From a virus: DNA of 64,000 nt. The DNA is taken from IMG/VR virus record IMGVR_UViG_3300045988_122191, positions 44,922-108,921 of that record, one strand, 5' to 3'. Position numbers and translations under genes: made by a program. This document shows, one piece after another, positions 692 through 63,716 of the stretch; within the stretch, counting starts at the first letter, position 1; each line of letters opens with the position of its first letter. The notes beneath the pieces are model-generated. The model saw only the letters and a list, made by a program, of their open reading frames with translations. It made no database searches and was not told the origin of the DNA.

Positions 692-3600
692 GTGGCGGAA
701 GAATTTGGCGTAAAGGTAAAACTTATACCTGAGTTTGACAGTAATGCTTTAAAGACTGCTGCTAGTGCGGCTGCTGGAAAGAGTGGTGTAAAGGTAAATC
801 TCCTGCCCGTAATTGATACTAAGGGGCTGCAGAGCGCTGTCAATGCCGCAGCAAAGAACTTAGTTCTGAATATAGATGACGTAAAGATCAACGGCAAGAG
901 TGGTCGAGGTAGTGGTGCTAGTTCTGGCGGGAGCGGCAGTTCTGGAAGCAAAAGGTCGTCCGCCACTAACATCGAACCTCTTATCAAATATTATAAAAAT
1001 CTTGTAGATTATATTCGGAAGAACCCGTCTGTGCAAAAAGACAAGACCCTAGCTAGTGACCTATCTAATGAGAAAAAAGCGCTAGCTAATCTTGTTAGAG
1101 GTGCTATCCAGACTGGGTCTTATAGCAAGGATGGGTTTGCTAATAGCAAAAATAAAATTGCTGCAATACAAAATGCGGCTAGGGGCCGAGGTTTGGAGGA
1201 TACTTCTACTCCGAATAGGGCAGTCGCAACGCTTCAGAAACAAGTCGATGCCATCCGTGAAAAGGCAGCTAAATATAGCACGTCGGCGGATACTACGAGG
1301 GTAGAAACCGAGTTAAAAAAAGCGGAGGGTGCGATCCATCAACTTAGCCAACTTGGGACGGTGTCCGCTGAAAGCTTTGGTAAAGTTGAATCTTCGGCGA
1401 AAGCAGCTATCGCATCTGCCAAGGGAGCGATGGATAGTCTCTCTGCTTCAGTTAAAGATACGTCTAACGATTTAGTCCCCGTATATAACCTTTTAAAAAA
1501 AATATCCAGCATGGATCAACCGAAGAAGCTCTCGTTGCTGGATGATGCTGATATTAACGACCTGAAGTCTTACAAGGATCAACTTGAAGCTATTGTCGAG
1601 GCTGGGTCATACAGCAAATCAGATTTAAGAAAAATCACTTCAGGCGTCGCAGGGATAGATTACAAACAAAACAACATAAGTACCGGGTTTAAATCAGAAG
1701 TTCTTTCTATAGCGCAGGGCGTGACAGTAGCCGAAGCAATTCAAGGTGCTTTTTACAAAGCAAAGCAAGTTGCTACGGAAATGGTTACTGCTGTTAGGGA
1801 TATCAATGACGCGCTAACTCAGCTTACCATTGTTACTGGAAAGAGTGGCTCAGAACTCGACTCGTTCTTCCAGAGGGCGGCAGACTCAGCATATAATATG
1901 GGGCACAGTGTCACAGAGGTTCTTGGGTCTGTCGAGACATTCACCCGTCTTGGCTATGGATTAGAAGACGCCTCTACTCTTGCTGATGCTGCAACTATCA
2001 TGTCAAATGTTGCCGACACGACAGTGAGTGCGTCAACGACTGGTTTAACTTCTATTATTAAGAGCTACGGTCTTGAAGCTTCTGATGCCACTCGTGTTTC
2101 TGACGTTTTGGCTAAAGTCGGTAAAGATTATGCTATTAGCGCAGAAGAACTAATGACTGCTCTGGAGCGTGGTGGTGCGGCTCTTAACGTAGCTAACACA
2201 TCCTTCGAAGAATCTGTTGCCCTCGCGGCAGCCGGAAACGCCGCAATTCAGGACCCAATTAAAACGGGCACAGCTTTAAAAACAATGTCCGCAAGAATCC
2301 GCACATCTAAGCCTGAACTCGAAGAACTCGGTGAAGACTACGACGACGTTGCGACATCCGCTGCAAAATATCGCGCAGAAATTAAAGCGTTGTCTGGCGT
2401 TGATATTATGGAAAACGCCACTACCTATAAGTCGATTTACGATATCATGGTAGAGATTGCAAGCGTTTGGGATAAGATGTCTGATACAGACCAGGCAGCA
2501 TTGCTTGAGCGCATCGCTGGTAAGAATCAGTCCAATGTTGTTGCTGGCATTATCACTAACCTAAAGGACTTGACTGGCGCTTATGACGAAGCGCTGAGTG
2601 CTTCCGGAGAAACTGAAGTAGCTAATGAGGTCGTTATGGACTCAATCTCCGGTAAGGTTGGTCAGTTCAAAGAACAGTTTGAAGAGCTTTCTTACAACAC
2701 TATAAATTCTGACCTGGTAAAGGGTGTAGTGTCTGGTGGCACGGGCATCTTAGGATTTCTAAATAAAGCAATAGAACTATTCCACCAGCTTGGCCCCGTC
2801 GCAACAGCAACCGAGGCCGCACTTGCTGGCGTGGCTGGTGTTAAGTTAGCAAAAGGCGGAATGGATATAGTCAAGCAGCTTGCTACTGGCGATAAGAAAG
2901 ACTCCTTTAGCGGCATACTCGCCAACAAGACTTTATCCGGAGTTGATAAGGCTAAAGGCGCGATTAGTGGTCTATGGGGGGTTATAGCCGCTCATCCTGT
3001 TGCGTCTGCAGTGGTTGCTGTTGGTGCGTTGGCTACAGCGTTTGCTATTACCGCAATGAAGGCAGAGTCCCTTGATAGCAAGATCGAAAAGCTACAAGCT
3101 TCCACGGAGTCTTATAAGGCTGCACAGACAGATGTAGATAACACGAAAACGCAGATAGACGCTAACCAAAAGATTATTGATAATATCAGAGATCAAGGTT
3201 ATACAAGTCTTACTGACGAAGGTACGGTCGCAAAACTTCAAAGGGAAAACGAAGGGCTTCGGCGCTCTCTTGCGTACAAAAAAGAAGTAGCCGAGACGGA
3301 ATCCAAAAAGGTACATGACGATGCGTTAGACGTTATAACTTCAAGCGGCGGTGCGTGGGATTCTATCTCGTCTGCTTTTACTGGGGATTATGACGGTCTT
3401 CTTGGTGAGAGACTTATCAGCGCCTCTAAAGACATCCTTGAATATACTAAAGACGTTGACGACTTAAAAGAAAAATTAAGTGACGATAGTATTTCTGAGT
3501 ATACGAGAAATGGTTATGAGGCTGGTCTCGAACAAACAGAGAAAATGCTTGAGTCGGCAAAAGGGTCTGCCCAGGAATATGTCTCTGTTATTGAAGACAC

Positions 3601-6600
3601 GTTAAGCGGTTTTAAAGCAGCAACGCCCGAAGAGCAAAAATATGTCGATCTACTCCGTGAAGCAGAGGCCGCTTACGTACAAGCGATGGACGCTGCTGAA
3701 GGAAAAAGCGTTGAAGAAATCATTGGTGATGGGTTTGCAGCGGACGGAGCCTTATCTTCTTTGGTTGATGACTTTTATAACCTTGGTGACGCTGGAGATG
3801 TAACCGAGCAGTCTGTTTTAGCGCTTGCTGGTGAATTTGACGAGCTGGATACCTTCATGCAAATACATGGTATCACCGCGCAACAACTTTGTGATTACTA
3901 TAATAACCTAGCAGACGCCACCGACCGCGCACTATCTTCCGAAGAACAGTATGGTTACGTATTACAAGATGTAATCTCCTTCGGGAAGAGTATGCAAAAT
4001 TATCAAAATATGTCGAAGTCTTATACGCCGTATGATGAGACTGTAAAGGCATATGATAATATGATGCAGTATCAAAAGACTGGTATGACTGGTCTTGGCA
4101 ACGAAAGCTATTGGGGTTTTTTGAAGGAAAACTTCACGGGTTTCGATGATGTTGATATCGACAATGTTGGAGAGAAAAGGAAGCAAGCAGAAAAACTATT
4201 AAGAGAGTATGACTCGATCTACAGAAATAGAGATAAGGATGGCAACTTAACGGCGTCCGGTGTTCAAGCATTCTTTGATAAAATGAGTTCCAACAAAAAG
4301 GTGCAAGACATACTGAAGAAAAATGGAGACTCATTCACAAAGGATAAGAATGGCGATTATGACTGGAACATCCCGGTTAGTCACTTTAAAGAGGTTGCAG
4401 AAGCACTCGGTCTGTCAAGAGAAGGGTTTGAGTCTTTGATTGCTGCGGCTGGGAACTATGTTGATATAGACTGGTCAGACGACGCCGGAATGAACTATTT
4501 TGAGCGGCTTAAGAAGTACGCGAAAGAAGCTGGAGACTCTATAGAGAATACGAAAGAGTATACAGTTGCATCCAAAGAAGCTATCTCAAAAGCGTCAGAG
4601 GCTGCAGGGAAAACTGAAGAAGAGTTCTCTAAAAAATATCAGGAAAAACAAAAGAAAATTCTGTATACAGACCTCGGAAGCGGGTATTACCAGACTGATT
4701 ACAGCTCTATGGAAAAAGCCGCGAAAGATGCTGGCACAAATGTAACTAGGTATGTACAAGGGCTTGAAGCATCTATGGGCAAGAAGATTATACTGTCTAT
4801 GGATGTTGATACAGTAAATGCTGAAAAAGAGATTGGTACGTTTGTAGAGGATGAAAACGGTAAAACGATCCAGGTCTATTCAAAGGCAGATCCAGAATCT
4901 ATTGAGAGAATAAAGAAGGAGTACGAGGGACAGGACGTCACTATCAAAGTTCGCACCCAGTACGGCGGCGAGACAAAGACAGTCGAGGCAGCAGGTGACG
5001 CCGGTAATGAAAAAATAATTAAGGTCTCTGTGGCTGGCATAGAACAGGCAGGTACGCAGCTAGACGCACTTCAGGGTAAGTACGAAGCACTTCGGTCTAA
5101 GCCAAATATTACAAAGACTGTCACAACGAATTACGTAGAGAATCACACCATCAATACAATCAAGAAGACAACATCGTCCGGAAGCAATTCTAACCGCTAT
5201 GCTGGCTTGACCTTAAACAGCAGTAGCGGAGGCGCTAGACGGAGACAGACGAATGGGTCTAAGGCTAACGGTACTGCTTTCGCTCAGGGTACTTCTGGTT
5301 TCTGGGGCGCTGGAGGCTCTGGTACTGCTCTCGGTGGTGAAGTCGGCCCAGAGCTATTGGTGAGAGATGGCTCGTTCTATATAATCGGGCAGGACGGTGC
5401 GGAGTTCTTTGATTATCGTTCTCATGATATAATCTTTAATGCCGCTCAGACGGAAGAGCTTTTTAAGAAGGGTAAGCTTCGCGGCTCTGACACGCGCGGC
5501 AAGACAGCTATGGCGGACGGTACTGCTTTTGCCGGGGGAGCCGGGGGAAAAAATAACTTTGGCAATCCGAAACCTGGTGTCCGTGGTGACAGCAGTTTGA
5601 AGTCAGGAGGCTCCTCTGGTTCCAGCAAGAAGTCAGGCGGGGGTAAAAAAAAGACTGGCGGCGGAAAGAAAAAGGGCGGCGGTAAAAAGAGAGGATCCGG
5701 CTCAAAGTCAGATGCCGAATTTTTCGATTGGGTCGAGGTCAAGCTTCAGCGGATTGAAGAGGCTATTGAGAAGATTGGTATTGCAGCTGATAGCGTTTAT
5801 GGCACCACAAAAACTCGGAACGATGCTTTGAGAGAGAGTATCAAAAAACTCAATAGTGAAATTTCTTTGCAGGGCAAGGCGTATAATTATTACATTAAGA
5901 AGGCAAATTCTGTTGGCTTGAAAAAAGAGTATAAGAACAAAGTCCAGAATGGCGCGATTGATATTGATAAGATTTCCAATAAGAAATTAAAAGAGAAAAT
6001 CAGTCAGTATCAAGAGTGGTACAACAAAGCTCAAGATTGCAAGAAGCAAGTAGAAGAACTCAAGGTTAGCGTCGGTGACGCTTATAAAGAGATCTTCGAC
6101 AACTATTCTAAGCGAGCACAGGAAACCCTTGATAGGCTTGAAGATCATCGTGATTCTATACAAGCATTTATTGACCTTGCAGAAGAAGCTGGTTATAAGA
6201 TAAGCTCGAAGTATTACGAGGTTATGGTTGAAAGCGAAGGTAAGACTAGTGCGCGTCTTATCGAAAAGAGAAAAGGACTTGTAGAAAAACTGAATAAGGC
6301 GGTTGACTCAGGATTTGTTAAGACCGGGTCTGAAGCATGGTACGAGATGCGTCATGAGATCGACCAGCTTACCACCTCTATCATTGAAGCAGATGAAGCT
6401 ATAAAGAAGTATCAGAACGAACTAAGACAATTAAACTGGGACAAGTTTGACGACATGCAAGATGGCTTTTCAAAGCTAACAGACGAAGCCGAATTTCTGA
6501 TTGATTTGATGAGCGAGAAAGACTTGTTTGACGATAACGGCGCTATCACTAACGAGGGTATTGCCACAAGAGCATTGCACGCTCAAAATTACAACGTATA

Positions 6601-8119
6601 TATGGCCCAGGCTGATCAGTACGCTGAGGCTATTGCTGAAATCAATAAGTCTATCGCAAACGACCCGTACAACACAAAGTTGCTAGAGCGTCGTGAAGAT
6701 TTGATTGAGTCACATAGGGACGCTATTCTTGCGGCCAATGACGAAAAGGATGCACTAAAGGACTTAGCCGAAGATGGTTTTGATGCCCTGCTGGATTCTT
6801 TAAAGGATGTCATTGATGAATATGAAAAAGCATTAGATAGTGCAAAAGATTTGTATGACTATCAGAAAAATATTGACGAGCAAGTAAAGAACATATCAAA
6901 GCTTGAGAAGCAACTGACCGCCTATTCTGGCGACGCCTCAGAAGAATCTAAGAAGACTGTCCAACAGCTGAAGAACGACCTGAAGGAAGCTAAGGATGAT
7001 TTGGCTGACAGCCAGTATGACAAATATGTGTCTGACACAAAAGAGCTTCTAGACGACCTTGTTGATAATTTTGAAGAGTTTATAAATGAGCGCCTCGATG
7101 ACGTGGACAAGTTGTTGTCCGACGCAATTGAGTCAGCAAACAAAAACGCGGACACAATCGCAAGTACAATTAACAGCGCAACAAAAGAGGTCGGATCTTC
7201 CCTGTCCGACTCAATGCGGTCTATCTGGGATGCCAACAGCTCTAAGGATATCCTGTCTAACTACTCTGAGAGCTTCAGTGAAGAATGCACAACCTTGAAT
7301 GGCATACTGAACGAAATCAAAGGGTATGTCGCGCGGCTATATTCTACTGGGGACTCAGAGGCATCTGATAATATCAAGGATATAAAGAGCCAGACTAACG
7401 AAGGCAAAGGAACTCCGAAGCAAAGTGGCAGCGGCAACACTACAACCACAACAAAGAATCCTCCAGAAGATAAAAAGATGGACGGAATCTTTTATAAGAA
7501 GACATATACCAAAAGCAAGAAAAAACTGAAACCTAACAAATACTTCATTCATAGACTGAAGTATAAAGACTACGATTGGTCGATGAAGGCAAGAGACGAG
7601 TATTTTAAGAAGATGGGGTTCCAGGCTAAATATGGCGTGTACCATAAGGTTGGCGGCAAGTACAATAAGCAGATAATCAACTGGATGAAGAAGCGCGGCT
7701 ATGCGTCCGGTGCTCAAGACATCCCGCGTGATGAGTTGGCGTGGACTCAAGAGAACGGGCCTGAGACAATCGTCCGTAAGTCTGACGGCGCTCTGCTTAC
7801 CCAACTCAAGAGAGGCGATAGTATTCTGAACAAAAACGCTACCTCGAATATCTGGGATATGGCGAATGATCCACGTGATTTCATTGCTCGCACTATGAGT
7901 TTTGGCAACGGTTTGCCTGGCGTTAAGATTCCTGGCGGCACGGGTAACAATATCAAGAACTCTATTGATATGGAGATCGTACTACCCAATGTCTCAAACT
8001 ACAACGACTTTATGAACTCAGCTCGATCTGATCCTAAGTTCGAAAAGCTGGTTCAGGCAATGACCGTTGATAGACTAGCTGGCAGAAACACAAAAGGGAA
8101 AAATAATATTAAGTGGTGA
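692..8119 (+). CDS. tail tape measure protein (2475 aa)
   Basis: GTG start 5 nt after RBS AAGGTGGTGA. Very long alpha-helical/coiled-coil protein. The TP901-type TMP core (QLTIVTGKSG...TFTRLGYGLEDAST...) is present, with a Gly/Lys low-complexity linker. The conserved TMP C-terminal GPE motif occurs twice, at nt 5333-5474 and 7713-7856. Located immediately before Dit and Tal. Confidence 0.9.
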   Translation: MAEEFGVKVKLIPEFDSNALKTAASAAAGKSGVKVNLLPVIDTKGLQSAVNAAAKNLVLNIDDVKINGKSGRGSGASSGGSGSSGSKRSSATNIEPLIKYYKNLVDYIRKNPSVQKDKTLASDLSNEKKALANLVRGAIQTGSYSKDGFANSKNKIAAIQNAARGRGLEDTSTPNRAVATLQKQVDAIREKAAKYSTSADTTRVETELKKAEGAIHQLSQLGTVSAESFGKVESSAKAAIASAKGAMDSLSASVKDTSNDLVPVYNLLKKISSMDQPKKLSLLDDADINDLKSYKDQLEAIVEAGSYSKSDLRKITSGVAGIDYKQNNISTGFKSEVLSIAQGVTVAEAIQGAFYKAKQVATEMVTAVRDINDALTQLTIVTGKSGSELDSFFQRAADSAYNMGHSVTEVLGSVETFTRLGYGLEDASTLADAATIMSNVADTTVSASTTGLTSIIKSYGLEASDATRVSDVLAKVGKDYAISAEELMTALERGGAALNVANTSFEESVALAAAGNAAIQDPIKTGTALKTMSARIRTSKPELEELGEDYDDVATSAAKYRAEIKALSGVDIMENATTYKSIYDIMVEIASVWDKMSDTDQAALLERIAGKNQSNVVAGIITNLKDLTGAYDEALSASGETEVANEVVMDSISGKVGQFKEQFEELSYNTINSDLVKGVVSGGTGILGFLNKAIELFHQLGPVATATEAALAGVAGVKLAKGGMDIVKQLATGDKKDSFSGILANKTLSGVDKAKGAISGLWGVIAAHPVASAVVAVGALATAFAITAMKAESLDSKIEKLQASTESYKAAQTDVDNTKTQIDANQKIIDNIRDQGYTSLTDEGTVAKLQRENEGLRRSLAYKKEVAETESKKVHDDALDVITSSGGAWDSISSAFTGDYDGLLGERLISASKDILEYTKDVDDLKEKLSDDSISEYTRNGYEAGLEQTEKMLESAKGSAQEYVSVIEDTLSGFKAATPEEQKYVDLLREAEAAYVQAMDAAEGKSVEEIIGDGFAADGALSSLVDDFYNLGDAGDVTEQSVLALAGEFDELDTFMQIHGITAQQLCDYYNNLADATDRALSSEEQYGYVLQDVISFGKSMQNYQNMSKSYTPYDETVKAYDNMMQYQKTGMTGLGNESYWGFLKENFTGFDDVDIDNVGEKRKQAEKLLREYDSIYRNRDKDGNLTASGVQAFFDKMSSNKKVQDILKKNGDSFTKDKNGDYDWNIPVSHFKEVAEALGLSREGFESLIAAAGNYVDIDWSDDAGMNYFERLKKYAKEAGDSIENTKEYTVASKEAISKASEAAGKTEEEFSKKYQEKQKKILYTDLGSGYYQTDYSSMEKAAKDAGTNVTRYVQGLEASMGKKIILSMDVDTVNAEKEIGTFVEDENGKTIQVYSKADPESIERIKKEYEGQDVTIKVRTQYGGETKTVEAAGDAGNEKIIKVSVAGIEQAGTQLDALQGKYEALRSKPNITKTVTTNYVENHTINTIKKTTSSGSNSNRYAGLTLNSSSGGARRRQTNGSKANGTAFAQGTSGFWGAGGSGTALGGEVGPELLVRDGSFYIIGQDGAEFFDYRSHDIIFNAAQTEELFKKGKLRGSDTRGKTAMADGTAFAGGAGGKNNFGNPKPGVRGDSSLKSGGSSGSSKKSGGGKKKTGGGKKKGGGKKRGSGSKSDAEFFDWVEVKLQRIEEAIEKIGIAADSVYGTTKTRNDALRESIKKLNSEISLQGKAYNYYIKKANSVGLKKEYKNKVQNGAIDIDKISNKKLKEKISQYQEWYNKAQDCKKQVEELKVSVGDAYKEIFDNYSKRAQETLDRLEDHRDSIQAFIDLAEEAGYKISSKYYEVMVESEGKTSARLIEKRKGLVEKLNKAVDSGFVKTGSEAWYEMRHEIDQLTTSIIEADEAIKKYQNELRQLNWDKFDDMQDGFSKLTDEAEFLIDLMSEKDLFDDNGAITNEGIATRALHAQNYNVYMAQADQYAEAIAEINKSIANDPYNTKLLERREDLIESHRDAILAANDEKDALKDLAEDGFDALLDSLKDVIDEYEKALDSAKDLYDYQKNIDEQVKNISKLEKQLTAYSGDASEESKKTVQQLKNDLKEAKDDLADSQYDKYVSDTKELLDDLVDNFEEFINERLDDVDKLLSDAIESANKNADTIASTINSATKEVGSSLSDSMRSIWDANSSKDILSNYSESFSEECTTLNGILNEIKGYVARLYSTGDSEASDNIKDIKSQTNEGKGTPKQSGSGNTTTTTKNPPEDKKMDGIFYKKTYTKSKKKLKPNKYFIHRLKYKDYDWSMKARDEYFKKMGFQAKYGVYHKVGGKYNKQIINWMKKRGYASGAQDIPRDELAWTQENGPETIVRKSDGALLTQLKRGDSILNKNATSNIWDMANDPRDFIARTMSFGNGLPGVKIPGGTGNNIKNSIDMEIVLPNVSNYNDFMNSARSDPKFEKLVQAMTVDRLAGRNTKGKNNIKW

Positions 8120-22464: not shown

Positions 22465-23637
22465 TTATTTTTTATCTAGGCTACAGATAATCTCATCAAT
22501 CTTAATCGCACACCCCACAAAGTCCAGCGGGCCAAACCCTTTGGTCGTCATAGCTGCACAGCCGATTCTAATTCCACTAGTCTCTGTCGGAGATCTCTTA
22601 TCACCCGGCACACAGTTCTTATTTACTGCAATACCTTTCTCCTCCAAGGCGTCCTGGACCATTTTCCCAGTAACATTAGGATGGGTATTGGTCAGGTCAA
22701 TCATGAACAGATGATTGTCTGTTCCGCCGGATACAATCTCGTAGCCCATCTTTTTGAACTGCTCGCACATAGTGTATGTATTCAGAACCACCTTGGAGAT
22801 ATACTCCTTGTACTCTTCCGTGCAAGCCTCTTCTGCCGCCACTGCTTTGCCTGCAATAGCGTGCATTAGAGGGCCGCCCTGGTTTCTGGGGAACACCGCG
22901 CTATTGATTTTCTTTGCCAACTCTTCTGTACGAGAGAAGACCATGCCGCCCCTGGTAGAACGAAGGGTCTTATGCGTGGTGGTGGTGATTACATCTGCGA
23001 GGCCAAATGGAGATACGTGCTCGCCACCGACAATCAGCCCGGCGATATGTGCCATATCTACCATAAAGATAGGGTGGTAATCAGGATCAACAGACATTTC
23101 GATATCAATGATTTTTTTAATCAAGCCAAACTTAATTTCTCTTGAATAAGAACTCGCACCAGCTAAAATTAGCTTGGGTTTGTGAGTTCTTATTTTTTTA
23201 CTGAGATCGTAGTAATCAATAATCCCATCTTCATCTAAACCATAGAAAACCGGATTGTAAAGCTTACCAGAAATGCTGGCTGGCGAAAAGTGTGATAGGT
23301 GCCCACCACAGTCCAACGACATGCTCAAAACCGTATCACCTGGATTGAGCAGCGCGTAGTAAACCGCTTCGTTTGCCTGTGTGCCGGAGTGGGGTTGGAC
23401 ATTTACGAAGTAGTCTGTGTTGAAGGCTTCCTGCCATTTCTTTTGGCAGTAAAGCTCAAGCTCGTCTACCACTTCACAGCCGCCATAATACCGGTAACCA
23501 GGATACCCCTCGGCGTACTTGTTGGTAAGGCAAGAACCAACTGCTTTCATCACATCTTCTGAACAAAAGTTCTCTGACGCAATTAGATTGATCTGGCGTT
23601 CTTGTCTTTGCTGTTCTTCCGCAATAAAATCAAACAC
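22465..23637 (-). CDS. glyA: serine hydroxymethyltransferase
   Basis: SHMT motifs LIASENF, VQPHSG and TTTTHKTLRSTRGG (PLP lysine region) are present. 390 aa, slightly shorter than bacterial GlyA. Confidence 0.85.
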   Translation of the reverse strand: MFDFIAEEQQRQERQINLIASENFCSEDVMKAVGSCLTNKYAEGYPGYRYYGGCEVVDELELYCQKKWQEAFNTDYFVNVQPHSGTQANEAVYYALLNPGDTVLSMSLDCGGHLSHFSPASISGKLYNPVFYGLDEDGIIDYYDLSKKIRTHKPKLILAGASSYSREIKFGLIKKIIDIEMSVDPDYHPIFMVDMAHIAGLIVGGEHVSPFGLADVITTTTHKTLRSTRGGMVFSRTEELAKKINSAVFPRNQGGPLMHAIAGKAVAAEEACTEEYKEYISKVVLNTYTMCEQFKKMGYEIVSGGTDNHLFMIDLTNTHPNVTGKMVQDALEEKGIAVNKNCVPGDKRSPTETSGIRIGCAAMTTKGFGPLDFVGCAIKIDEIICSLDKK

Positions 23638-23685
23638 TCTTTTCGTTACTATACACCTCGCGTTTCGTTCGTCATATGTACGTTG

Positions 23686-24236
23686 TTAATTGACCCATCG
23701 CACAATCGGGTCGCCCTGGAATCCTTTCTCCCAGACAAACCATGCGTATGCGACGGCGTTATTCTTTCGATCAAACACACCGTTCTTGCCACAGCACACA
23801 CGCGATGAGAACACGTATATTGTTTTAGGCGGATACTTTTGAAACAGTTGCTTACGAGCCTTTCCTTCCAAGAAAGTGAGCTTCAAAAACATTGCAACCT
23901 TGTGCCCGTCTCCCACACACTCTAAAGACTTCTCAACAAATTCCCGTGCGTACTTATAGGGGGGTTGGTGATAATGTCGATGTCATCTGCCTCTGTAAAG
24001 TCCTCGTTTAAAAAATCAACAGGGGCTTTAAATCCAAAACCTCTATACACCAGGTCTGTACTTAGTACATCGTACCCTCTCTCAAGCAGGACTTTCGATA
24101 TATGGCCTTCACCACAAGCTGGTTCCCATACATCCTTAGAGAAGGTTTCGTGATCGAGCAAGATCTCCACGGCTCTTGGTTCTGTGGCGTAGTAATCGTT
24201 AGTCGCTGCGTCATCTTTTCTGTTGTTGCCAGACAA
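23686..24236 (-). pseudogene. phage Dam-family N6-adenine DNA methyltransferase, split by a frameshift at a G6/C6 homopolymer
   Basis: The upstream ORF (23922-24236) has DYYATEP and motif I WEPACGEGHI and ends ...DIDIITNPP then stops. Adding one C to the C6 run (plus-strand G6 at 23959-23964) restores NPPYKYAREF... and fuses in frame to the downstream ORF (23686-23916; ...AYAWFVWEKG). Confidence 0.6.
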
Positions 24237-24264
24237 GATGAACTGCTGTGTCCCAACCCAATCT

Positions 24265-24666
24265 TTATTCTTTATCGCTCAACAGCTCCTTTGCAAGATC
24301 TACAAACGGCTGGATGTCGTCTGCGAGAGTCCCAGGCCACCAAGGGCCATCTGCCTCGTTTGGTAGTTCTACGGCCTTGCAGACCGCCATTGCTTGATCA
24401 TACGTCATTCTGTTGCCGACCTCATCTTGAATCGCATAGCATACATCTCTAACACAGCGCGCATACCGCGCTTCTCGGTCTAGAATATCCGCGACGTACT
24501 TGGCCTCCAATTCCTCGTTTCTTTTCGCAAGCTGCTCTCTGTTCCACTTGACAGACTTGTTTTCGTCGATAATCATGTGGTCAACGTATCTATCACGCCT
24601 TGGTTTACTCCGTTGAATGCGGAATCCTTCGTCCTCAAGCGCTTTCCATGCTTCTTTGTAAACCAT
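24265..24666 (-). CDS. hypothetical protein
   Basis: 133-aa ORF; no recognisable motif. Confidence 0.4.
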   Translation of the reverse strand: MVYKEAWKALEDEGFRIQRSKPRRDRYVDHMIIDENKSVKWNREQLAKRNEELEAKYVADILDREARYARCVRDVCYAIQDEVGNRMTYDQAMAVCKAVELPNEADGPWWPGTLADDIQPFVDLAKELLSDKE

Positions 24667-24713
24667 AAATCATCCTCTCTGACCGCCGCCCGTGCGGGCG
24701 GCGGTTCTATAAA

Positions 24714-25052
24714 TCATTTATCTGTTTTGTCGTAAATCGTCTTTACGACAGTCCCAATGCGAACACTTTTAACGACCTTGTAAGGTTGTCCAGTCATTTG
24801 ATATCCAAGAAGATCCCACGTCCAAGGGATGCACCAAAGGTTATTACCAGCCTTAATGATGGTCTGCATCTCTTTAGCTGATCGGCCTTCTCCCCTTTCC
24901 ACCACATCAAATTCTTCGTACTTGCCAGGCTCTGTGTGACATCTATCATCATAACCAAGTGCTAGGTAGGAGAGTTCTTCTTCGTTAAGAGGAATGCCAT
25001 GCAGCATTTTCTCAATGATTGTCACTACCAAATCGCCTCCTCTCTTATTCAA
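24714..25052 (-). CDS. hypothetical protein (paralogue of 55850-56164)
   Basis: Shares ...G(N/D)(N/D)LW(C/A)IPW...QPY(K/R)VVK..R... with the ORF at 55850-56164. Confidence 0.45.
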   Translation of the reverse strand: MNKRGGDLVVTIIEKMLHGIPLNEEELSYLALGYDDRCHTEPGKYEEFDVVERGEGRSAKEMQTIIKAGNNLWCIPWTWDLLGYQMTGQPYKVVKSVRIGTVVKTIYDKTDK

Positions 25053-26007
25053 TCTTCACGCCGATCGACTCCAGGACTTCCTTCATCCCAAGTCCGCCTT
25101 CGTCCCAGGGCTTCATGCAATACTCCCACAGCTTCGGGTGAGTTTGCTTTAGCCGCTGGAACCGGTTCGGTTCTTTTTCCAGATGCGCCCCGAACGCGCA
25201 GAAGACGCAGCCCGTGCGAGCGCAACCAGTAGTATGTAACTTGCCCTTATCATCTTCCACAATCTCGCCATAGACCGAGGCGTAGGGGACGTTAAACCGC
25301 TTGAGATAAAGCAGCACGTCTTGCTCTGTCCAAAAGCTCATTGGTTGGGACTGTGGGTGTTTAACCTCAAAAGCGTTGCAGCCATTTACCAGCCAAGCCT
25401 GGCGACGCATAACACCTTCTTCCGCCATGGTGGCAATGATAGGGTGCTTCTTACTCGCCGTGTGGTATCGGTGTGCCGTGCTCTTCTTCATGACGTTGCA
25501 GCACTGCTTGCTCACTTTGATATGGTCGTTTTCGGGGTTGTTCACCCAGTCAACCCACCGGCGGGATAGGTTTAACCTAGCCCGCCGGTATAACGGGTGG
25601 CTCGAATCCATATAGCGTTGTGTGTAAGCGCAGCCCTTCCGGGAGTCTTCGATTAGCTGCGCGGTGTGCTTTGACCCCAACGGATACCCGTACTTCTCGA
25701 TCACCTGGCGGAAATTTATCTTCGGTTTCAGCCAAGTGACATTGTTAAACGTCTTGACAAACTCCCTAATCTCCGGGTACTCCAAGCCAGTGTCGATAAA
25801 CACTGCCTCGATGTCAGGGTAGATTCTACGGGCCATATCCAGCAGCACGGTAGAATCCTTGCCGCCAGAGAATGACACGTACACCTTGCCGTCATAGTGT
25901 TGATACCATTCGATGATGCGGGTCTGCGTGACCCGGATTTTGCGTTCTAACGGCCATGCCTGCATTTCCTTTAGGTCTTCTGGGGTGTATTTCTTTTCTT
26001 TTTCCAT
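25045..26007 (-). CDS. PAPS-reductase-like PP-loop ATP pyrophosphatase family protein (DndC-like)
   Basis: PP-loop motif VSFSGGKDSTVLL and a C-terminal Cys cluster (TTGCARTGCVFCAFG). 320 aa. Confidence 0.6.
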   Translation of the reverse strand: MEKEKKYTPEDLKEMQAWPLERKIRVTQTRIIEWYQHYDGKVYVSFSGGKDSTVLLDMARRIYPDIEAVFIDTGLEYPEIREFVKTFNNVTWLKPKINFRQVIEKYGYPLGSKHTAQLIEDSRKGCAYTQRYMDSSHPLYRRARLNLSRRWVDWVNNPENDHIKVSKQCCNVMKKSTAHRYHTASKKHPIIATMAEEGVMRRQAWLVNGCNAFEVKHPQSQPMSFWTEQDVLLYLKRFNVPYASVYGEIVEDDKGKLHTTGCARTGCVFCAFGAHLEKEPNRFQRLKQTHPKLWEYCMKPWDEGGLGMKEVLESIGVKIE

Positions 26008-26594: not shown

Positions 26595-27098
26595 CTAATC
26601 TGTAATCCATTTGACCCATACGCCATCTTGTTTTTTCCAAACAATCTGGTTACTGCTGCCTCGGAACTGAAGGGTGACATCTCGCTTGTCGATCTCAAAC
26701 TTCCCGTCTACTAAATACGTGCATCTATCTAATAGCTGAGACATATCTTTGTCTTGCTGCACCTGTCCCATTAGCAGCCCTGTGTAGCACCAGAGGTTAT
26801 CATTAGGGATATGGATCTTATCAATAATGGAAACCAGTTCCCCGGCGGAGAACATAGGGTCTCCGCCGGACAGAACCAGTGCGTTTAAAAACGGTCTTTT
26901 ATCAATCTCAAAATTGATTCTATCAATTACATCTTGTGTGATTTCAAGCCCATAATTAAAGTCATGGGTCTGTGGCGACTGACAGCCTGGGCAGTTATTT
27001 CGACACCCCGAAATAAACAGCACACAAGCTACACCCTCTGCATCACAGAAGGATTCCCAGTCATAGCCTGCGAGCTTAACCAAATAGCTCACCTGCAT
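26595..27098 (-). CDS. nrdG: anaerobic ribonucleotide reductase activating protein (radical SAM)
   Basis: CX3CX2C as GCRNNCPGC near the N-terminus. 167 aa. Immediately downstream of nrdD with a 23-nt overlap. Confidence 0.8.
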   Translation of the reverse strand: MQVSYLVKLAGYDWESFCDAEGVACVLFISGCRNNCPGCQSPQTHDFNYGLEITQDVIDRINFEIDKRPFLNALVLSGGDPMFSAGELVSIIDKIHIPNDNLWCYTGLLMGQVQQDKDMSQLLDRCTYLVDGKFEIDKRDVTLQFRGSSNQIVWKKQDGVWVKWITD

Positions 27099-29337
27099 CT
27101 TGATATGTACTATGTTTCACTCTTTCTTCTACCTCTGCTTGTTTGCCGTCGTTAAAATTGTGGTAATCAGTAGAAAGATATCCTGTTACGCGACGTAGCT
27201 GCTGGATGTTCTTGCTTCCGCATTCAGGACAACTATTATTAAACTCGCCCTGATATCCGCAATCTAAGCAACTATCAATTGGGAAATTGAAAGCAAGATA
27301 CGGAATATCAAGCTCTTTAAAAGCATAATCAATAATATCTTCCACAGCTTTAGTATTCTTTACGAAGGTGCTCGACAATTCTACGTAAGTAATAGTGCCA
27401 CCTGTCGGATACTTACAGAACGGAGCTTCAATACGAAGCTTGTCATAGATAGACACCTTTTCCCATACAGGCACATGGTGGGAGTTTGTCAGATAATCAT
27501 GAGATGTAACATCTTTAATAACACCATATTGCTCTCTAAGCGCAACCAGCGCTGTACGCGCTAATGTTTCGGCCGGAGTCGCGTAACATGAGAAATTCAG
27601 GTCATTTCGCTTAGATGCCTCTGCCGCAAACTCATTGATTCTTTTTACAACAGATAGCGCAAAGGCGTGAATATCCTTGTCGTGAACATGATTTTTCCCG
27701 AATAGCGCTTGACACATCTCTGCAACTCCAATGAAGCCTATGGCAAGCGTGTTGCCTTTTAAAGCATTAAACACGTCGTCTTCACACTCACGTGCTTTTT
27801 GGATTGTATTGTTTTCATACATAAACGGAGCAGCTTTCGGTGATTGCCGAACCATGATTTCGAACCGCTCTAGCAGCCCTCTCTCACACAGTTTTAATGT
27901 TTCCTCAAAAGCGTTCCAGAACCCGTCGAGATCTGGCTTTGTGCGCTCTCCTAGGCAAATACCAAACTCGATTCCGAGCTTCGGGAGAATAATTGTGTTG
28001 GGTACATTATTCCCTCTGCCTTGGCGGATATACCCAAGGCCATGGCGATCATACCCCAGCATAGTTCTACAACCCATGGTACTAAACCAGGTGTCCGGGT
28101 TGTCGTCGTCCTCATGCGCTTGAGACCAATCACCGTTACACCAGTTCGGGTAAATTCGTTTGCTCATTGACTTTAAGGCAAGCTGTTTGAGGTCGTAATT
28201 TTTATCTTCAGGATTTGCATTAACACCTTGCTTGTACTGGAAGATGCTAATTGGGAAGATGCTTGTCAGATGGTGTTTACCGATCCCATCTAGGCTGGCT
28301 TCAAAAACCCACTTGGTTATGAGTCGGCCTTCGACGGATGTATCTCTGCCAAGGTTGATTGACGTGAATGGCACCTGCGAACCTTGCCGTGATTCTAGTG
28401 TATTCAGGTTATGGTACAACGCCTGAGTCGATTGCTGCCCCTCTCTCTCTAACATATCCATAGCGTACTGATATGCTTTCGGGTAATATGATTTGAAAAC
28501 TGGATTGTCAATATGCCAATCATCTGTTTCAAAAATAACTATATCTCCAATTCCCCTCACAGTTGGTTCGTCGATGTATTTCTTTCCGTCTTCATAATGT
28601 TTGCGAAAGCTTTTCTTTACAAACGGAGCGAGATCCAGGTCAAAGTGTACCGTGCCGCAGCCACCGTACTGGATCTGGCTTTGGCACTGAAAAGCGACGG
28701 CGACAAGCTGACACGCTGTGCTGAAGCTTGCGGGTGGTCGCACATCTCCGTTTCTAGTGTGAAACCCGTATGTAAACAGCTCTTGGAAATTAACGTTAAG
28801 GCAATTGTGCATACCGTAAATCGCCTTCTCCAGGTCGTGCTGATAAATCAACATTTCCTTATGAGCTTTTGCTACTTCGTCAGATAGACCGCCATACTCT
28901 AAGGCAATCATCTTACCGATATCAGCAGATGCCTCTTTTTCTCTGCCTGAAAAGCTCTTCTCGTCCACATTTGCATTAGATCTATTATCTACACTGGACG
29001 TTGCGCGATCCAAAACCTTCTGAACAAGCCGTCCGTTCCGCTCTCTTACCTTCGTTCTCTCATTTCTGTATAGGATGTATGCTTTTGCCACATCTTTTCT
29101 GTCAGATTCCATAAGTTTGGCTTCAACAATATCTTGAATTTCCTCAACAGACTTGCTTTTTTTCATTTCAGCAGTCACGGCGACCGCAATTTCCTTTGCA
29201 ACAGCTGCACACTGCCCATTTTCTTCCCCATCGACGCTTACAAACGCCTTCTTTACTGCTTCTTCTATCTTTTTAGGGGAAAATTTCTCTAACCGACCGT
29301 CTCTTTTGATTACAAATAGCTCGATAATCAACCACAA
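27076..29337 (-). CDS. nrdD: anaerobic ribonucleoside-triphosphate reductase (class III)
   Basis: 753 aa with an ATP-cone-like N-terminus. C-terminal zinc ribbon CLDCGYQGEFNNSCPECG followed by the glycyl-radical region RRVTGYLS. Confidence 0.9.
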   Translation of the reverse strand: MWLIIELFVIKRDGRLEKFSPKKIEEAVKKAFVSVDGEENGQCAAVAKEIAVAVTAEMKKSKSVEEIQDIVEAKLMESDRKDVAKAYILYRNERTKVRERNGRLVQKVLDRATSSVDNRSNANVDEKSFSGREKEASADIGKMIALEYGGLSDEVAKAHKEMLIYQHDLEKAIYGMHNCLNVNFQELFTYGFHTRNGDVRPPASFSTACQLVAVAFQCQSQIQYGGCGTVHFDLDLAPFVKKSFRKHYEDGKKYIDEPTVRGIGDIVIFETDDWHIDNPVFKSYYPKAYQYAMDMLEREGQQSTQALYHNLNTLESRQGSQVPFTSINLGRDTSVEGRLITKWVFEASLDGIGKHHLTSIFPISIFQYKQGVNANPEDKNYDLKQLALKSMSKRIYPNWCNGDWSQAHEDDDNPDTWFSTMGCRTMLGYDRHGLGYIRQGRGNNVPNTIILPKLGIEFGICLGERTKPDLDGFWNAFEETLKLCERGLLERFEIMVRQSPKAAPFMYENNTIQKARECEDDVFNALKGNTLAIGFIGVAEMCQALFGKNHVHDKDIHAFALSVVKRINEFAAEASKRNDLNFSCYATPAETLARTALVALREQYGVIKDVTSHDYLTNSHHVPVWEKVSIYDKLRIEAPFCKYPTGGTITYVELSSTFVKNTKAVEDIIDYAFKELDIPYLAFNFPIDSCLDCGYQGEFNNSCPECGSKNIQQLRRVTGYLSTDYHNFNDGKQAEVEERVKHSTYQDAGELFG

Positions 29338-48528: not shown

Positions 48529-48833
48529 ACAATATCTTCGTATTTCCCCATATAAAAATTACGGACTGCTCTGTCAATCATTCTCTTGTCTTTTTCCTTG
48601 TTGCACCAGAGCCTACCAACTCTTTTCACACAAGTGGCTTCGTCCGGCATCCATGACAGTACGGTGCCGTCCGTAAATTCCGTAAATGCCATATGTTCAT
48701 GTCGCCTGTATCTGTGCCTCACTTCTTTGCCGCAGGTCTGTTCGATCTTATCCATTAAGGCACAGCCAGATTCATAATCGAACCCGATAACAGCCCAGTA
48801 TTTTCTAAACATGATTCCCTCCGTAAAAATCAT
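48519..48833 (-). CDS. hypothetical protein
   Basis: 104-aa ORF overlapping its neighbours by a few nt (operon packing). Confidence 0.35.
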   Translation of the reverse strand: MIFTEGIMFRKYWAVIGFDYESGCALMDKIEQTCGKEVRHRYRRHEHMAFTEFTDGTVLSWMPDEATCVKRVGRLWCNKEKDKRMIDRAVRNFYMGKYEDIVWV

Positions 48834-49371
48834 AGTACCGATATAGGCTGCTCACATCTTTATTTCTTACCGGAGACCCATCGTAAAACACGTACGCATG
48901 TTTAACACCCTCGCCTACACAACGCATATAATCTGTCACGGCATTCAACGTCTTCCCGCTATAGTAGCTATCGTCAAGGAATATGAACTCTTTCCCCTGC
49001 GAGAACTCGCAGCAATGCCCTTTTGAAGCCAGTTTTGTGGGGTCCTCTCTCAGGCCGCCCGGCAATAAAAATAGATTGATGTTATCTGGAATTTCCCCAG
49101 CACACTGCAATTCGGCATACCTGTCACCTATCTCACCACTAACAACCACGTCATAAACGCCTGACCTGTCAGTAACATACTTTATGTACTCCGCAAGCAG
49201 CTTGGGCTGCTTCTTCACTTCAGCATCAAGTCTTGTGAAGTAAGATCTCCCCCCACTTTCTTCCGCCAGACATTTATTTACGATTAGTCTCATCCACACT
49301 TCAAGAAAAATCCTTGTGTGCATTTCACTCATGAGTTTACTTACAAGTAAATCAATTTCTCTATATAGCAT
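48805..49371 (-). CDS. type I phosphoribosyltransferase-fold protein (Hpt/Apt-like)
   Basis: PRPP-binding-like motif EFIFLDDSYYSGKTLNA, preceded by a YDVVVSGEIGDRYA flexible-loop region. Confidence 0.4.
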   Translation of the reverse strand: MLYREIDLLVSKLMSEMHTRIFLEVWMRLIVNKCLAEESGGRSYFTRLDAEVKKQPKLLAEYIKYVTDRSGVYDVVVSGEIGDRYAELQCAGEIPDNINLFLLPGGLREDPTKLASKGHCCEFSQGKEFIFLDDSYYSGKTLNAVTDYMRCVGEGVKHAYVFYDGSPVRNKDVSSLYRYYDFYGGNHV

Positions 49372-62543: not shown

Positions 62544-63716
62544 TTAGTTTTTGAGATCCTTCTTCATCGTGGCTTCAATATCAAAGCCAAACTTCTGACT
62601 ATAGCGAGTGATAACTCCATCAATACTTCCTCTGTTAACCATTCGATAGTAGCTCATAAGACCGAGCACATATTGCAGTTGCTCAAGAGGCCAATAAGTT
62701 CCGCTCTTTCTGTCCTTCGCGTAATTGAAAAGCATCGCCTCGAAGTTGCGCTTCTTCTTATACCCAATCGTGATCTGGTTGTCCTTGTTGATCATCACAC
62801 CGAGTACCCAATTCTTATGATACGAGGGGCCGTAATGAGTTTTCTCATCTTTGATGAGATAACTGGCCCCGAAAAGTCTAAACAGATTTTCAATCTTTCT
62901 GATAATGAAGCTCTTATCAAACTCAATACCACAGCTGATGTTCATATCATCAGCATATCTGGTATACGCGAACCTTCTACCCTTTTCATCAGGGTTGTTT
63001 TCCGGGTTCTGCAGGCTACGCAGAAACTTACTGAACTCAAAATCAAACGGAATCATAATCAGATTGGTCAGCATCGGGCTGATCGGCGTTCCCATAGGTA
63101 GACCTCCATCCAGGAAGCAAAGCGACAGAGCTTTTCTAAGCTCTTCTCTCCCGCTTTTGCACTCCATAATGAGACAGAACGGGTAAATCATAGACAGCGC
63201 GTTCCATACAAACTCCGGAGTGGTATTAGGAAAGAAACCGCTGATGTCAGTCTTTAAATACCACTTGCTCTTATTCCACTGATGGACTTTTGCGGCGTCT
63301 ACACTACTTCTGTTTTTGACATAAGCGTATGCAGCGGCATGGCTGCTCGCATAAAACTCAGATTCTAACAGCAGTTTTAGCTCTCGCAGACAATTCATCA
63401 GCTCGTCGTCCGGCGCGTTAATCTCTCTCATGCCGCCGCTCTTTTTCGGGATAAAAAACTTGTGGTAATGCTCACGAATATCACTCTCCATCAGGCCATG
63501 GTGTTTCTTGTTGAATGTTCTTAACAAACCAATCTTTTTCTCAACATCAAACCCCGCTAAAATTCTTTCAGGAAGTCGCTCATATGTAAATGTTCTAGTA
63601 TACGGAGATCTTGGTGTTCGCTCCCGCACATTCTCACCTTGGAATAATGCGAGCATAATATCTTCTAAAGCAATTTGCTTGTACGGCTCTGTAATTCTAA
63701 CTGTTACATAAATCAT
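62544..63716 (-). CDS. reverse transcriptase, retron-type (or retron-like Abi/DRT)
   Basis: RT motifs 1/2 KKSGGMREINAP and motif 3 WYLKTDISGFFPNT. Pre-motif YAYVKNRSSVDAAKVH (cf. retron ...RSI.TNA..H). Motif 4 GLPMGTPISPMLTNL. Motif 5 YTRYADDMNIS. Thumb region VLGVMINKDNQITIGYKKKRNFEA (cf. the retron VTG...KR pattern). RBS AAGGAGA. Confidence 0.75.
   Translation of the reverse strand: MIYVTVRITEPYKQIALEDIMLALFQGENVRERTPRSPYTRTFTYERLPERILAGFDVEKKIGLLRTFNKKHHGLMESDIREHYHKFFIPKKSGGMREINAPDDELMNCLRELKLLLESEFYASSHAAAYAYVKNRSSVDAAKVHQWNKSKWYLKTDISGFFPNTTPEFVWNALSMIYPFCLIMECKSGREELRKALSLCFLDGGLPMGTPISPMLTNLIMIPFDFEFSKFLRSLQNPENNPDEKGRRFAYTRYADDMNISCGIEFDKSFIIRKIENLFRLFGASYLIKDEKTHYGPSYHKNWVLGVMINKDNQITIGYKKKRNFEAMLFNYAKDRKSGTYWPLEQLQYVLGLMSYYRMVNRGSIDGVITRYSQKFGFDIEATMKKDLKN

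What the first reader, a model, noticed from the sequence alone, without database searches (positions are those of the whole stretch)
23686..24236. Phage Dam-family N6-adenine methyltransferase disrupted exactly at NPPY by a G6 homopolymer: phase-variable switch or homopolymer error
On the coding strand the catalytic motif reads aac ccc ccc (NPP) and then shifts frame. One extra C, giving C7 on the coding strand (G7 at 23959-23964 on the + strand), yields NPPYKYAREF.... It also fuses the 104-aa and 76-aa ORFs into a complete ~180-aa MTase (W..EP, FxGxG-like EPACGEG, NPPY). Homopolymer tracts inside MTase genes are the classic mechanism of phase-variable methylation. This could also be a sequencing artefact.
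Basis: seen in the sequence. Interest (0 to 1): 0.55.

Follow-up and report, generated by a model that had tools for sequence, protein, structure and literature searches.

The report
Slippery C-tract inactivating a phage methyltransferase
A gut phage's small DNA-methylase gene is broken by the loss of one C from a run of seven Cs that encodes its catalytic NPPY motif. The intact and several differently broken versions of this run circulate in other gut metagenomes, so this is a real mutational hot spot and possibly an on/off switch, not a sequencing error.

Summary
G6 at 23959-23964 (C6 on the coding minus strand) splits a 183-aa methyltransferase into 104-aa and 76-aa ORFs at AAC CCC CCT (NPP).

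- **Not an artefact.** The exact 104-aa product is encoded on 14 contigs from at least 10 samples.
- **The predicted C7 allele exists.** The intact protein P0122 is found on 9 contigs. ON/OFF pairs are identical for 736-1,986 nt apart from one C.
- **The tract varies in both directions within this ~107-kb phage clade.**
  - ON: C7T, C6TT, CCCACCCT, C6AT.
  - OFF: C6T (-1), C5T (-2), C7TT (+1), C5TT (-1).
  - In-frame but damaged: NPPY changed to TPY.
- **Some OFF lineages have decayed further.** Examples are G44V in motif I and an 84-nt deletion. The window's allele carries no other lesion.
- **The tract is specific to this clade.** None of about 165 more distant homologues has a C-run of 6 or more.
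- **The enzyme is not Dam-family.** It has no Pfam or TIGR Dam match, and its predicted fold matches the catalytic core of gamma-class enzymes such as M.TaqI and HsdM.

Verdict: this is a naturally occurring OFF allele at a hypermutable homopolymer, comparable to recently described phage contingency loci. Reversible, adaptive switching is plausible but unproven.

The parts
23686..24236 (-). Whole disrupted gene for a 183-aa orphan SAM-dependent amino-methyltransferase (PHROG 799). This copy is the OFF allele.
   Evidence: 100% identical apart from one C to the intact gene in L021, L123 and L125.
23922..24236 (-). N-terminal ORF of 104 aa with a TTG start. It carries the DYYATEP motif and motif I, and ends 12 codons after the frameshift.
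   Evidence: The exact product is found on 14 contigs.
24105..24125 (-). Motif I (SAM-binding, FxGxG-like): E38-P-A-C-G-E-G44.
   Evidence: Translation. G42 and G44 are invariant in 44 homologues.
23958..23966 (-). Remnant of catalytic motif IV: AAC CCC CCT = N91 P92 P93. The Tyr codon is thrown out of frame.
   Evidence: N91, P92 and P93 are invariant and Y94 nearly invariant.
23959..23964 (.). Homopolymer tract: G6 on the plus strand, C6 on the coding strand. In relatives it is C7 (ON), or C5, C6 or C7 in other frame states.
23686..23957 (-). C-terminal part of the methyltransferase (Y94 to N183), now in the -1 frame. Only 23686-23916 is callable as a 76-aa GTG-start ORF.

Best explanation
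The window carries a genuine, naturally circulating null (OFF) allele of a small phage-encoded orphan amino-methyltransferase. The enzyme has a gamma-class N6-adenine catalytic core and most likely methylates the phage's own DNA as protection against restriction.

**How it arose.** The allele arose by slipped-strand loss of one C from a C7 run (AAC CCC CCC TAT = NPPY). In this ~107-kb temperate gut-phage clade, that run happens to encode the catalytic motif. The frameshift removes the Tyr of NPPY and everything downstream, so any tract-length change produces a complete null.

**How it behaves.** Across the phage population the tract acts as a mutational hot spot. It has produced several different out-of-frame lengths as well as in-frame ones, and ON and OFF copies are about equally common. 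This is the pattern expected of a contingency-type locus. The window's allele has no secondary damage, so it could return to ON by a +1 slip or by recombination with an ON phage.

**What is shown.** The lesion, its reality, the C7 sister allele, the recurrent tract polymorphism and the fold class.

**What is inferred.** DNA rather than RNA as the substrate, the anti-restriction role, reversibility, and any selective benefit of the OFF state.
For: 1. **Real allele.** The 104-aa product is on 14 contigs from at least 10 samples. L010 is 100% identical to the window over 20.3 kb and L014 over 8.3 kb.
2. **ON sister allele.** P0122 equals the repaired protein and is on 9 contigs encoded with C7. 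ON/OFF pairs differ by a single C within identical blocks of 736 nt (L125 vs window) and 1,986 nt (L126 vs L011). An ON C6TT copy and an OFF GAC-C7TT copy are identical over 1,071 nt apart from the A-to-G change and the extra C (L020 vs L120).
3. **Many tract states**:
   - C7T, C6TT, CCCACCCT and C6AT are in frame.
   - C6T, C5T (93-aa product on 20 contigs), C7TT and C5TT are out of frame.
   - AC5T is in frame but changes NPPY to TPY (5 contigs).
4. **Hot spot.** In about 17 kb aligned across up to 34 loci, this is the only intragenic site with recurrent frame-changing length variation. All truncated cluster members break at the tract.
5. **Family and fold.** PHROG 799 DNA methyltransferase. 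AlphaFold model with pLDDT 86. Best PDB matches are M.TaqI, M.BseCI, CamA and HsdM.
6. **Precedent.** Homopolymers of 6 nt or more act as reversible contingency loci in phages, including the T2 DNA-modification gene agt (bioRxiv 10.1101/2025.10.21.683753).
Against: - C7 is at the minimum length considered phase-variable for G/C tracts (PMC6321876), so switching may be slow.
- The tract is not conserved. None of about 165 homologues at 47-70% identity has a C-run of 6 or more. Within the clade several lineages have interrupted it synonymously (CCT, CCA).
- Two OFF lineages show onward decay:
  - G44V at an invariant motif I glycine, plus T-to-I, in the C5T allele.
  - E19G in L025.
  - An 84-nt deletion in the TPY allele.
  
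  These look like one-way gene loss.
- The flanks of ON/OFF pairs differ by 2-5% while the gene is identical. Recombination therefore shuffles this gene. That lowers the count of independent tract events to about 3 and prevents proof of a true OFF-to-ON reversion.
- No read-level data are available. Substrate and target sequence are untested. TrmM (tRNA m6A) and other small methyltransferases match the fold almost as well.
Confidence: 0.68

Rival explanations
1. One-way pseudogenisation. The methyltransferase is dispensable in the current hosts. The C-tract is simply the most breakable site, and OFF alleles are dead ends drifting towards loss. No adaptive or reversible switching is involved.
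For: - OFF alleles are very widespread: 14 + 20 + 5 + 2 contigs.
- The C5T allele has G44V at an invariant glycine. L025 has E19G. The TPY allele has an 84-nt deletion.
- The tract is not conserved outside the clade.
- The tract is short (C7).
Against: - The window-type OFF allele, on two haplotypes, carries no other change relative to ON copies over 736-1,986 nt.
- Intact alleles remain about as common as broken ones. Many 183-aa members sit on up to 11 contigs each.
- An expansion as well as contractions is seen.
- Lesions are concentrated in 12 nt of a 552-nt gene rather than scattered.
Confidence: 0.27
2. Homopolymer sequencing or assembly error. The true sequence would be C7 and the gene intact.
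For: Homopolymers are a classic site of indel error. One relative (L012) shows several broken genes, suggesting a noisy assembly.
Against: - The identical C6 allele occurs in at least 10 samples, from different studies and assemblers (MEGAHIT, metaSPAdes-type scaffolds, Logan).
- C7 copies of the same haplotype assemble correctly elsewhere.
- The window is 100% identical to two independent contigs over 8-20 kb.
Confidence: 0.02
3. Recoding. The C6 allele is still expressed as full-length enzyme, either by programmed -1 ribosomal frameshifting on C_CCC_CCU or by transcriptional slippage. Either route would regenerate exactly NPPY-KYAREF.
For: The sequence forms a formal X_XXY_YYZ heptamer, and a -1 slip gives the authentic protein (reading).
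Against: - There is no downstream stimulatory structure. The 99-nt stretch spanning the slip site and about 85 nt downstream folds worse than shuffles (z = +2.0).
- The allele is a very recent derivative of an in-frame gene with the same flanks, so no recoding signal has had time to evolve.
- Other OFF alleles (-2, +1) cannot use the same slip.
- Six C residues are short for RNA-polymerase slippage (general knowledge).
Confidence: 0.03

Closest known systems
Phage contingency loci (T2 agt A9 tract, T4 rIIA; Gomez, Barrick & Waters, bioRxiv 10.1101/2025.10.21.683753)
   Same: A homopolymer of 6 nt or more inside a phage gene gives +/-1 frameshifts. The best-studied case is also a DNA-modification gene, whose ON and OFF states trade off between restriction systems.
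   Different: - Here the tract is a C/G run that lies exactly in the catalytic-motif codons of a methyltransferase.
- The evidence is population-level, from metagenome assemblies. No mutation or reversion rates have been measured.
- The phage is an uncultured temperate gut phage.
Bacterial phase-variable DNA methyltransferases (phasevarions; Type III mod genes; homopolymer-bearing methyltransferases of Helicobacter pylori, PMC3936762; Campylobacter poly-G genes, PMC6321876)
   Same: Simple-sequence-repeat slippage inside a methyltransferase ORF switches methylation ON and OFF. C7 meets the poly-G/C cut-off of 7 or more.
   Different: - The gene is phage-borne and orphan, with no cognate restriction or Res gene nearby.
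- The tract is at the very bottom of the functional length range.
- It is not conserved across homologues.
- Bacterial examples usually carry runs of 8-13 or tetranucleotide repeats near the 5' end.
Poly-G tracts in phage genes: Fletchervirus receptor-binding proteins (Sorensen et al. 2021) and a methylase gene of Bordetella phage BPP-1 (Liu et al. 2004), both as cited in the preprint above
   Same: G/C homopolymers in phage ORFs generate sub-populations. One reported case is also in a methylase gene.
   Different: The phage lineage, host and enzyme family are different. I did not read the primary papers. The BPP-1 tract was, according to the preprint, not studied further.
Gamma-class N6-adenine DNA methyltransferases (M.TaqI, M.BseCI, CamA, Type I HsdM)
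   Same: Motif I comes before motif IV (NPPY) with short spacing. The Rossmann-type catalytic core of the predicted structure superposes on these enzymes (Foldseek E about 1e-7, TM 0.6-0.67 on the query).
   Different: - The protein is only 183 aa and has no separate target-recognition domain.
- Sequence identity is 14-19%.
- No Pfam family matches.
- tRNA m6A methyltransferase TrmM matches similarly well.
Dam / phage Dam families (alpha-class EcoDam and T4 Dam; Pfam PF05869; TIGR01712 phage_N6A_met)
   Same: An NPPY/DPPY-type catalytic tetrapeptide, and phage-encoded orphan status.
   Different: - There is no significant profile match: Pfam gives none, and TIGR01712 gives E 0.12 and 12 bits against a cut-off of 97.
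- The motif order and spacing are not alpha-class.
- No Dam structures appear among the top fold matches.

Membership tests
SSR-mediated contingency / phase-variable locus | A homopolymer or simple-sequence repeat inside the ORF whose length sets the reading frame. | tested here: met
   C6 at 23959-23964 gives the frameshift. C7 gives the intact 183-aa protein.
SSR-mediated contingency / phase-variable locus | Tract-length variation between otherwise identical or near-identical genomes, with both ON and OFF states. | tested here: met
   Haplotypes h0 and h3 each have C7 and C6. Haplotype h6 has C6TT and C7TT. Identical blocks span 736-1,986 nt.
SSR-mediated contingency / phase-variable locus | Changes in both directions (reversibility). 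| tested here: inconclusive
   Contractions (-1, -2) and one expansion (+1) are seen, but on different backgrounds. Recombination prevents proof of a true OFF-to-ON reversion.
SSR-mediated contingency / phase-variable locus | An elevated switching rate within a clonal population (minority tract lengths in reads). | not testable with these tools
   Only assembled contigs are available.
SSR-mediated contingency / phase-variable locus | A tract long enough for efficient slippage (G/C run of 7 or more; PMC6321876). | tested here: inconclusive
   The ON allele is C7, exactly at the cut-off. The window allele is C6.
SSR-mediated contingency / phase-variable locus | The tract is maintained by selection (conserved among homologues beyond what codon usage predicts). 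| tested here: not met
   None of 88 motif instances in viral homologues and none of 86 in bacterial-genome homologues has a C-run of 6 or more. Within the clade the tract is interrupted in several lineages. However, CCC-CCC is improbable from codon usage, at about 1%.
Gamma-class N6-adenine (amino) methyltransferase | Motif I (FxGxG-like) lies N-terminal to motif IV ((D/N)PP(Y/F)) with short spacing. | tested here: met
   EPACGEG at residues 38-44 and NPPY at 91-94 in the repaired protein. Both are invariant in 44 homologues.
Gamma-class N6-adenine (amino) methyltransferase | The fold of the catalytic domain. | tested here: met
   Model pLDDT 86 and pTM 0.85. Top PDB matches are M.TaqI, M.BseCI, HsdM and CamA.
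Gamma-class N6-adenine (amino) methyltransferase | A separate target-recognition domain and demonstrated DNA m6A activity. | tested here: not met
   The protein is 183 aa and consists of the catalytic core alone. Activity cannot be tested here.
   No Pfam family matches at E up to 1. TIGR01712 scores 12 bits against a cut-off of 97.

The most novel reading that the evidence does not exclude
A temperate gut phage uses a C7 run placed exactly on the NPPY codons of its orphan adenine methyltransferase as a bet-hedging switch.

- ON progeny are protected from classical restriction-modification systems.
- OFF progeny escape methylation-dependent (Type IV-like) defences.

Both states are kept at comparable frequency in human gut populations. 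Metagenome assemblies would then already show a phage 'phasevarion' operating in the wild.
Probability: 0.3. Interest if true: 0.65.

Novelty: new member of a known kind. Interest (0 to 1): 0.45.

Why it matters
Phage contingency loci have only just been demonstrated, and only in laboratory coliphages. This locus gives a natural-population example in an uncultured gut phage. At least eight tract states of one 12-nt motif are found across dozens of independent metagenomes. They include matched ON/OFF pairs that differ by a single C.

The locus is a ready-made target for three tests:
- Whether phages toggle self-methylation to move between hosts with opposing restriction systems.
- How fast a C7 run slips when copied by a phage-encoded Pol III-type replicase.
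- Whether OFF alleles are rescued by reversion or recombination, or decay.

For annotation, the split gene should be labelled a frameshifted methyltransferase. It should not be silently 'corrected', and the family should not be called Dam.

Tried and rejected
- **Megablast of 23000-25000 against INPHARED phages:** no match. No cultured relative exists. tblastn finds only homologues below 60% identity.
- **Curated protein families:** Pfam, NCBIfam and PADLOC give no family membership. The PDB sequence search gives only noise.
- **Host identification:**
  - An exact DNA-pattern scan of GTDB genomes found nothing.
  - A protein-based scan found only homologues at 67% identity or less, in prophages of Lachnospiraceae, Faecalibacterium, Bacteroidales and others.
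  - No tRNA genes were found.
  - The host remains unknown. The GH25/PG_binding_1 lysin suggests a Gram-positive host.
- **Programmed -1 frameshifting:** the heptamer exists, but no downstream structure does. Rejected.
- **First impression that the lesion was a T deletion (C6TT to C6T):** this came from the first two relatives. It was superseded when the C7T copy with zero mismatches was found.
- **Treating the two C6T haplotypes (h0, h3) as independent events:** this was weakened because h3 is identical to h0 from the 5' end to beyond the tract, and recombination is rife.
- **Direct lookup of the repaired protein:** It was obtained instead through cluster membership, as P0122.
- **A second amino-methyltransferase in the window:** only spurious overlapping ORFs carry (S/N)PP(Y/F).

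Full report
**1. The observation**

On the minus (coding) strand the window reads ...GAC ATC GAC ATT ATC ACC AAC CCC CCT ATA AGT ACG ... TAG. The C6 run is at 23959-23964, which is G6 on the plus strand.

- ORF 23922-24236 (104 aa, TTG start) ends 12 codons after NPP.
- ORF 23686-23916 (76 aa) continues in the -1 frame.
- Adding one C fuses them into a 183-aa protein with DYYATEP, EPACGEG (motif I) and NPPY (motif IV).

The description and the coordinates are correct.

**2. What the gene is**

- The repaired protein matches no Pfam family at E up to 1.
- TIGR01712 'phage N-6-adenine-methyltransferase' scores only 12 bits against a cut-off of 97.
- It matches PHROG 799 'DNA methyltransferase' over its whole length (E 2.9e-62).
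- It has thousands of homologues of about 185-200 aa in metagenomes, in cultured phages of Staphylococcus, Listeria, Bacillus, Aeromonas, Vibrio and rV5-like coliphages, and in prophages of gut Clostridia and Bacteroidales.
- In 44 homologues, G42, G44, N91, P92 and P93 are invariant and Y94 is nearly so.
- An AlphaFold model (pLDDT 86, pTM 0.85) best matches M.TaqI, M.BseCI, CamA and Type I HsdM. The tRNA m6A enzyme TrmM and small uncharacterised methyltransferases score close behind.

The order motif I then motif IV, about 50 residues apart, is the gamma-class arrangement. The protein is the catalytic core alone, without a target-recognition domain. 'Dam-family' is therefore not supported. 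'Small orphan gamma-type amino-methyltransferase, probably acting on DNA' is the defensible label. The substrate is inferred, not shown.

**3. Context**

The window is part of a ~107-109-kb temperate phage known only from human gut metagenomes.

- It is 100% identical over 20.3 kb to ENA contig ERZ27261182 k119_124860 (108,922 bp).
- It is 100% identical over 8.3 kb to a Logan contig from run ERR1137144.
- The methyltransferase sits in a nucleotide-metabolism and replication module: Pol III alpha, NrdD/NrdG, dUTPase, a PAPS-reductase-like gene, two small ORFs, the methyltransferase, SHMT, an HD protein, a Band_7 protein and ThyX. These are followed by Xis, an integrase and a GH25 lysin.
- No restriction gene is adjacent.
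- No cultured relative exists, and no host could be assigned.

**4. Is the frameshift real?**

Yes.

- The exact 104-aa truncated product is encoded on 14 contigs from at least 10 samples, produced by different assemblers. All of them read AAC CCC CCT AT.
- The same haplotype with C7 assembles as an intact gene elsewhere.

Random or systematic assembly error is therefore not a tenable explanation.

**5. The tract in relatives**

Collecting relatives by exact-protein lookup and by a gapped DNA pattern gave 41 loci of this clade plus the window. The states between ...ATCACC and AAGTA... are listed below.

| State | Sequence | Where found |
|---|---|---|
| In frame | AAC7TAT | L021/L024/L123 (one contig), L121, L122, L124, L125, L126, L028 |
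| In frame | AAC6TTAT | L001, L002, L020 |
| In frame | AACCCACCCTAT | L022, L023 |
| In frame | AAC6ATAT | L027 |
| Out of frame, -1 | AAC6TAT | the window and L010-L019 |
| Out of frame, -2 | AAC5TAT | L109-L118; 93-aa product on 20 contigs |
| Out of frame, +1 | GAC7TTAT | L119, L120 |
| Out of frame, -1 | AAC5TTAT | L025 |
| In frame but damaged | AC5TAT (NPPY to TPY, plus an 84-nt in-frame deletion) | L003, L026; 5 contigs |

All truncated members of the 90% protein cluster (93, 94, 99, 100 and 104 aa) break at the tract. One full-length member has NTPY (P0132).

**6. Matched ON/OFF pairs**

With the tract masked, haplotype h0 contains both C7 copies (L021, L125) and C6 copies (the window, L010, L014). 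Haplotype h3 contains C7 (L126) and C6 (six loci). Haplotype h6 contains C6TT (L020) and GAC7TT (L119, L120). The blocks of perfect identity around the single-C difference are:

- 736 nt for L125 vs the window.
- 1,986 nt for L126 vs L011.
- 1,071 nt for L120 vs L020.

**7. Caveat on counting events**

Outside the identical block, the flanks of these pairs differ by 2-5%. Haplotype h3 is identical to h0 from the 5' end to beyond the tract and resembles h6 at the 3' end. The gene is clearly shuffled by recombination.

One C7-to-C6 event plus recombination can therefore explain both C6T haplotypes. L025 (C5TT) may be the same frameshift plus a C-to-T change.

A conservative count is about three independent frame-changing events: C7T to C6T, C6TT to C7TT, and the C5T allele. 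The TPY allele is additional. A true OFF-to-ON reversion cannot be proven from these data.

**8. Hot spot or general decay?**

- Across about 17 kb aligned in up to 34 loci, the tract is the only intragenic site with recurrent length variation that is not a multiple of three. The other such indels are intergenic, paired within divergent stretches, or singletons.
- The tract is unusual for the genome. Only three G/C runs of 6 or more occur in 64 kb, and CCC is the rarest proline codon, at 15%.
- The tract is specific to this clade. Among 88 NPPY instances in more distant viral homologues and 86 in bacterial-genome homologues, none has a C-run of 6 or more, and the maximum is C5.
- Two OFF lineages show secondary damage:
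  - The C5T allele has G44V at an invariant motif I glycine, plus T-to-I.
  - L025 has E19G in the DYYATEP motif.
  - The TPY allele lacks 28 codons.
- The window's allele has none.

**9. Interpretation**

The data fit a hypermutable homopolymer that repeatedly knocks out a conditionally dispensable methyltransferase.

- Intact and broken copies are roughly equally frequent among assemblies.
- 'Young' OFF alleles, such as the window's, are still one slip or one recombination away from ON.
- Older OFF alleles are decaying.

This is what a contingency locus looks like at the population level. It parallels the recent demonstration that homopolymers of 6 nt or more act as reversible contingency loci in phages. 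That work includes T2 agt, where ON and OFF states trade off between Type IV systems (10.1101/2025.10.21.683753). It also parallels bacterial phase-variable methyltransferases (PMC3936762, PMC6321876).

Whether switching here is fast, reversible and selected is not established. C7 is at the lowest accepted cut-off, and the tract is not conserved. Simple hot-spot-driven gene loss therefore remains a serious rival.

Programmed -1 frameshifting on C_CCC_CCU would formally regenerate NPPY. However, it lacks any downstream structure (z = +2.0) and any evolutionary history.

**10. Verdict**

- The artefact alternative is refuted.
- The 'phase-variable' idea is supported at the level of tract polymorphism, with matched ON/OFF alleles, but not at the level of measured switching.
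- 'Dam-family' should be replaced by gamma-type core methyltransferase (PHROG 799).
- Novelty: a new member of a known, recently recognised kind. Interest is moderate.

Noticed in passing
window 62544-63716 (-): A 390-aa ORF is a reverse transcriptase (Pfam RVT_1, E 2.9e-13; motif IPKKSGGMREI). It may belong to a diversity-generating retroelement or a retron in this phage.
   Followed up: partly
window 25045-26007 (-): A PAPS-reductase-like gene lies between the dUTPase gene and the small ORFs upstream of the methyltransferase. It is present in some otherwise syntenic relatives (L010, L011, L109, L123) and absent in others (L003, L110, L121, L122). It is a variable cassette next to the methyltransferase.
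   Followed up: partly
window 27076-29337 (NrdD) and 22465-23637 (SHMT); loci L003, L011-L013, L119, L121, L123, L125: In several relatives NrdD and SHMT are split by insertions. Examples are a 185-aa ORF inside SHMT, and 239-aa and 93-aa ORFs inside NrdD. These look like introns, inteins or homing-endonuclease insertions. Both genes are intact in the window.
   Followed up: no
window 24237-24272 (-), just upstream of the TTG start: The in-frame codons upstream of the TTG start encode KDWVGTQQFI. This is homologous to the N-terminus MKDWTGTKQFI of a 71%-identical homologue (P0003), but the ATG is AAT here. The clade seems to have lost the ancestral start codon and now uses TTG. That start lies about 30 nt downstream of the upstream gene's stop codon.
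   Followed up: partly
L003 10001-10465 and L026: This allele has AC5TAT (NPPY to TPY). That equals the -2 frameshift allele minus one further A, so the reading frame is restored. It also has an in-frame 84-nt deletion. Two frame-preserving lesions in a catalytically dead gene could be chance, or could hint at selection to keep the ORF open.
   Followed up: partly
L109-L118 (C5T allele); L025: These OFF alleles carry additional substitutions at conserved residues: G44V in motif I and T-to-I in the C5T allele, and E19G in DYYATEP in L025. This indicates decay after inactivation.
   Followed up: yes
L012 (Logan SRR31481598): Several genes in this contig are broken (NrdD, NrdG, SHMT), unlike in its near-identical relatives. 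It is probably a noisy assembly and should not be used for indel inference.
   Followed up: no
window 2976-2981 and 49249-49254: These are the only other G/C homopolymers of 6 or more in the window. Both lie inside intact ORFs: the 2,475-aa ORF 692-8119 (+) and the 188-aa ORF 48805-49371 (-). None of the relatives fetched covers these regions, so polymorphism could not be checked.
   Followed up: partly
MTase gene vs flanks, e.g. L125, L123 and L126 compared with the window and L011: The methyltransferase gene is 100% identical between phages whose flanking genes differ by 2-5%. This indicates recent recombinational exchange of this small segment among co-circulating phage lineages.
   Followed up: partly
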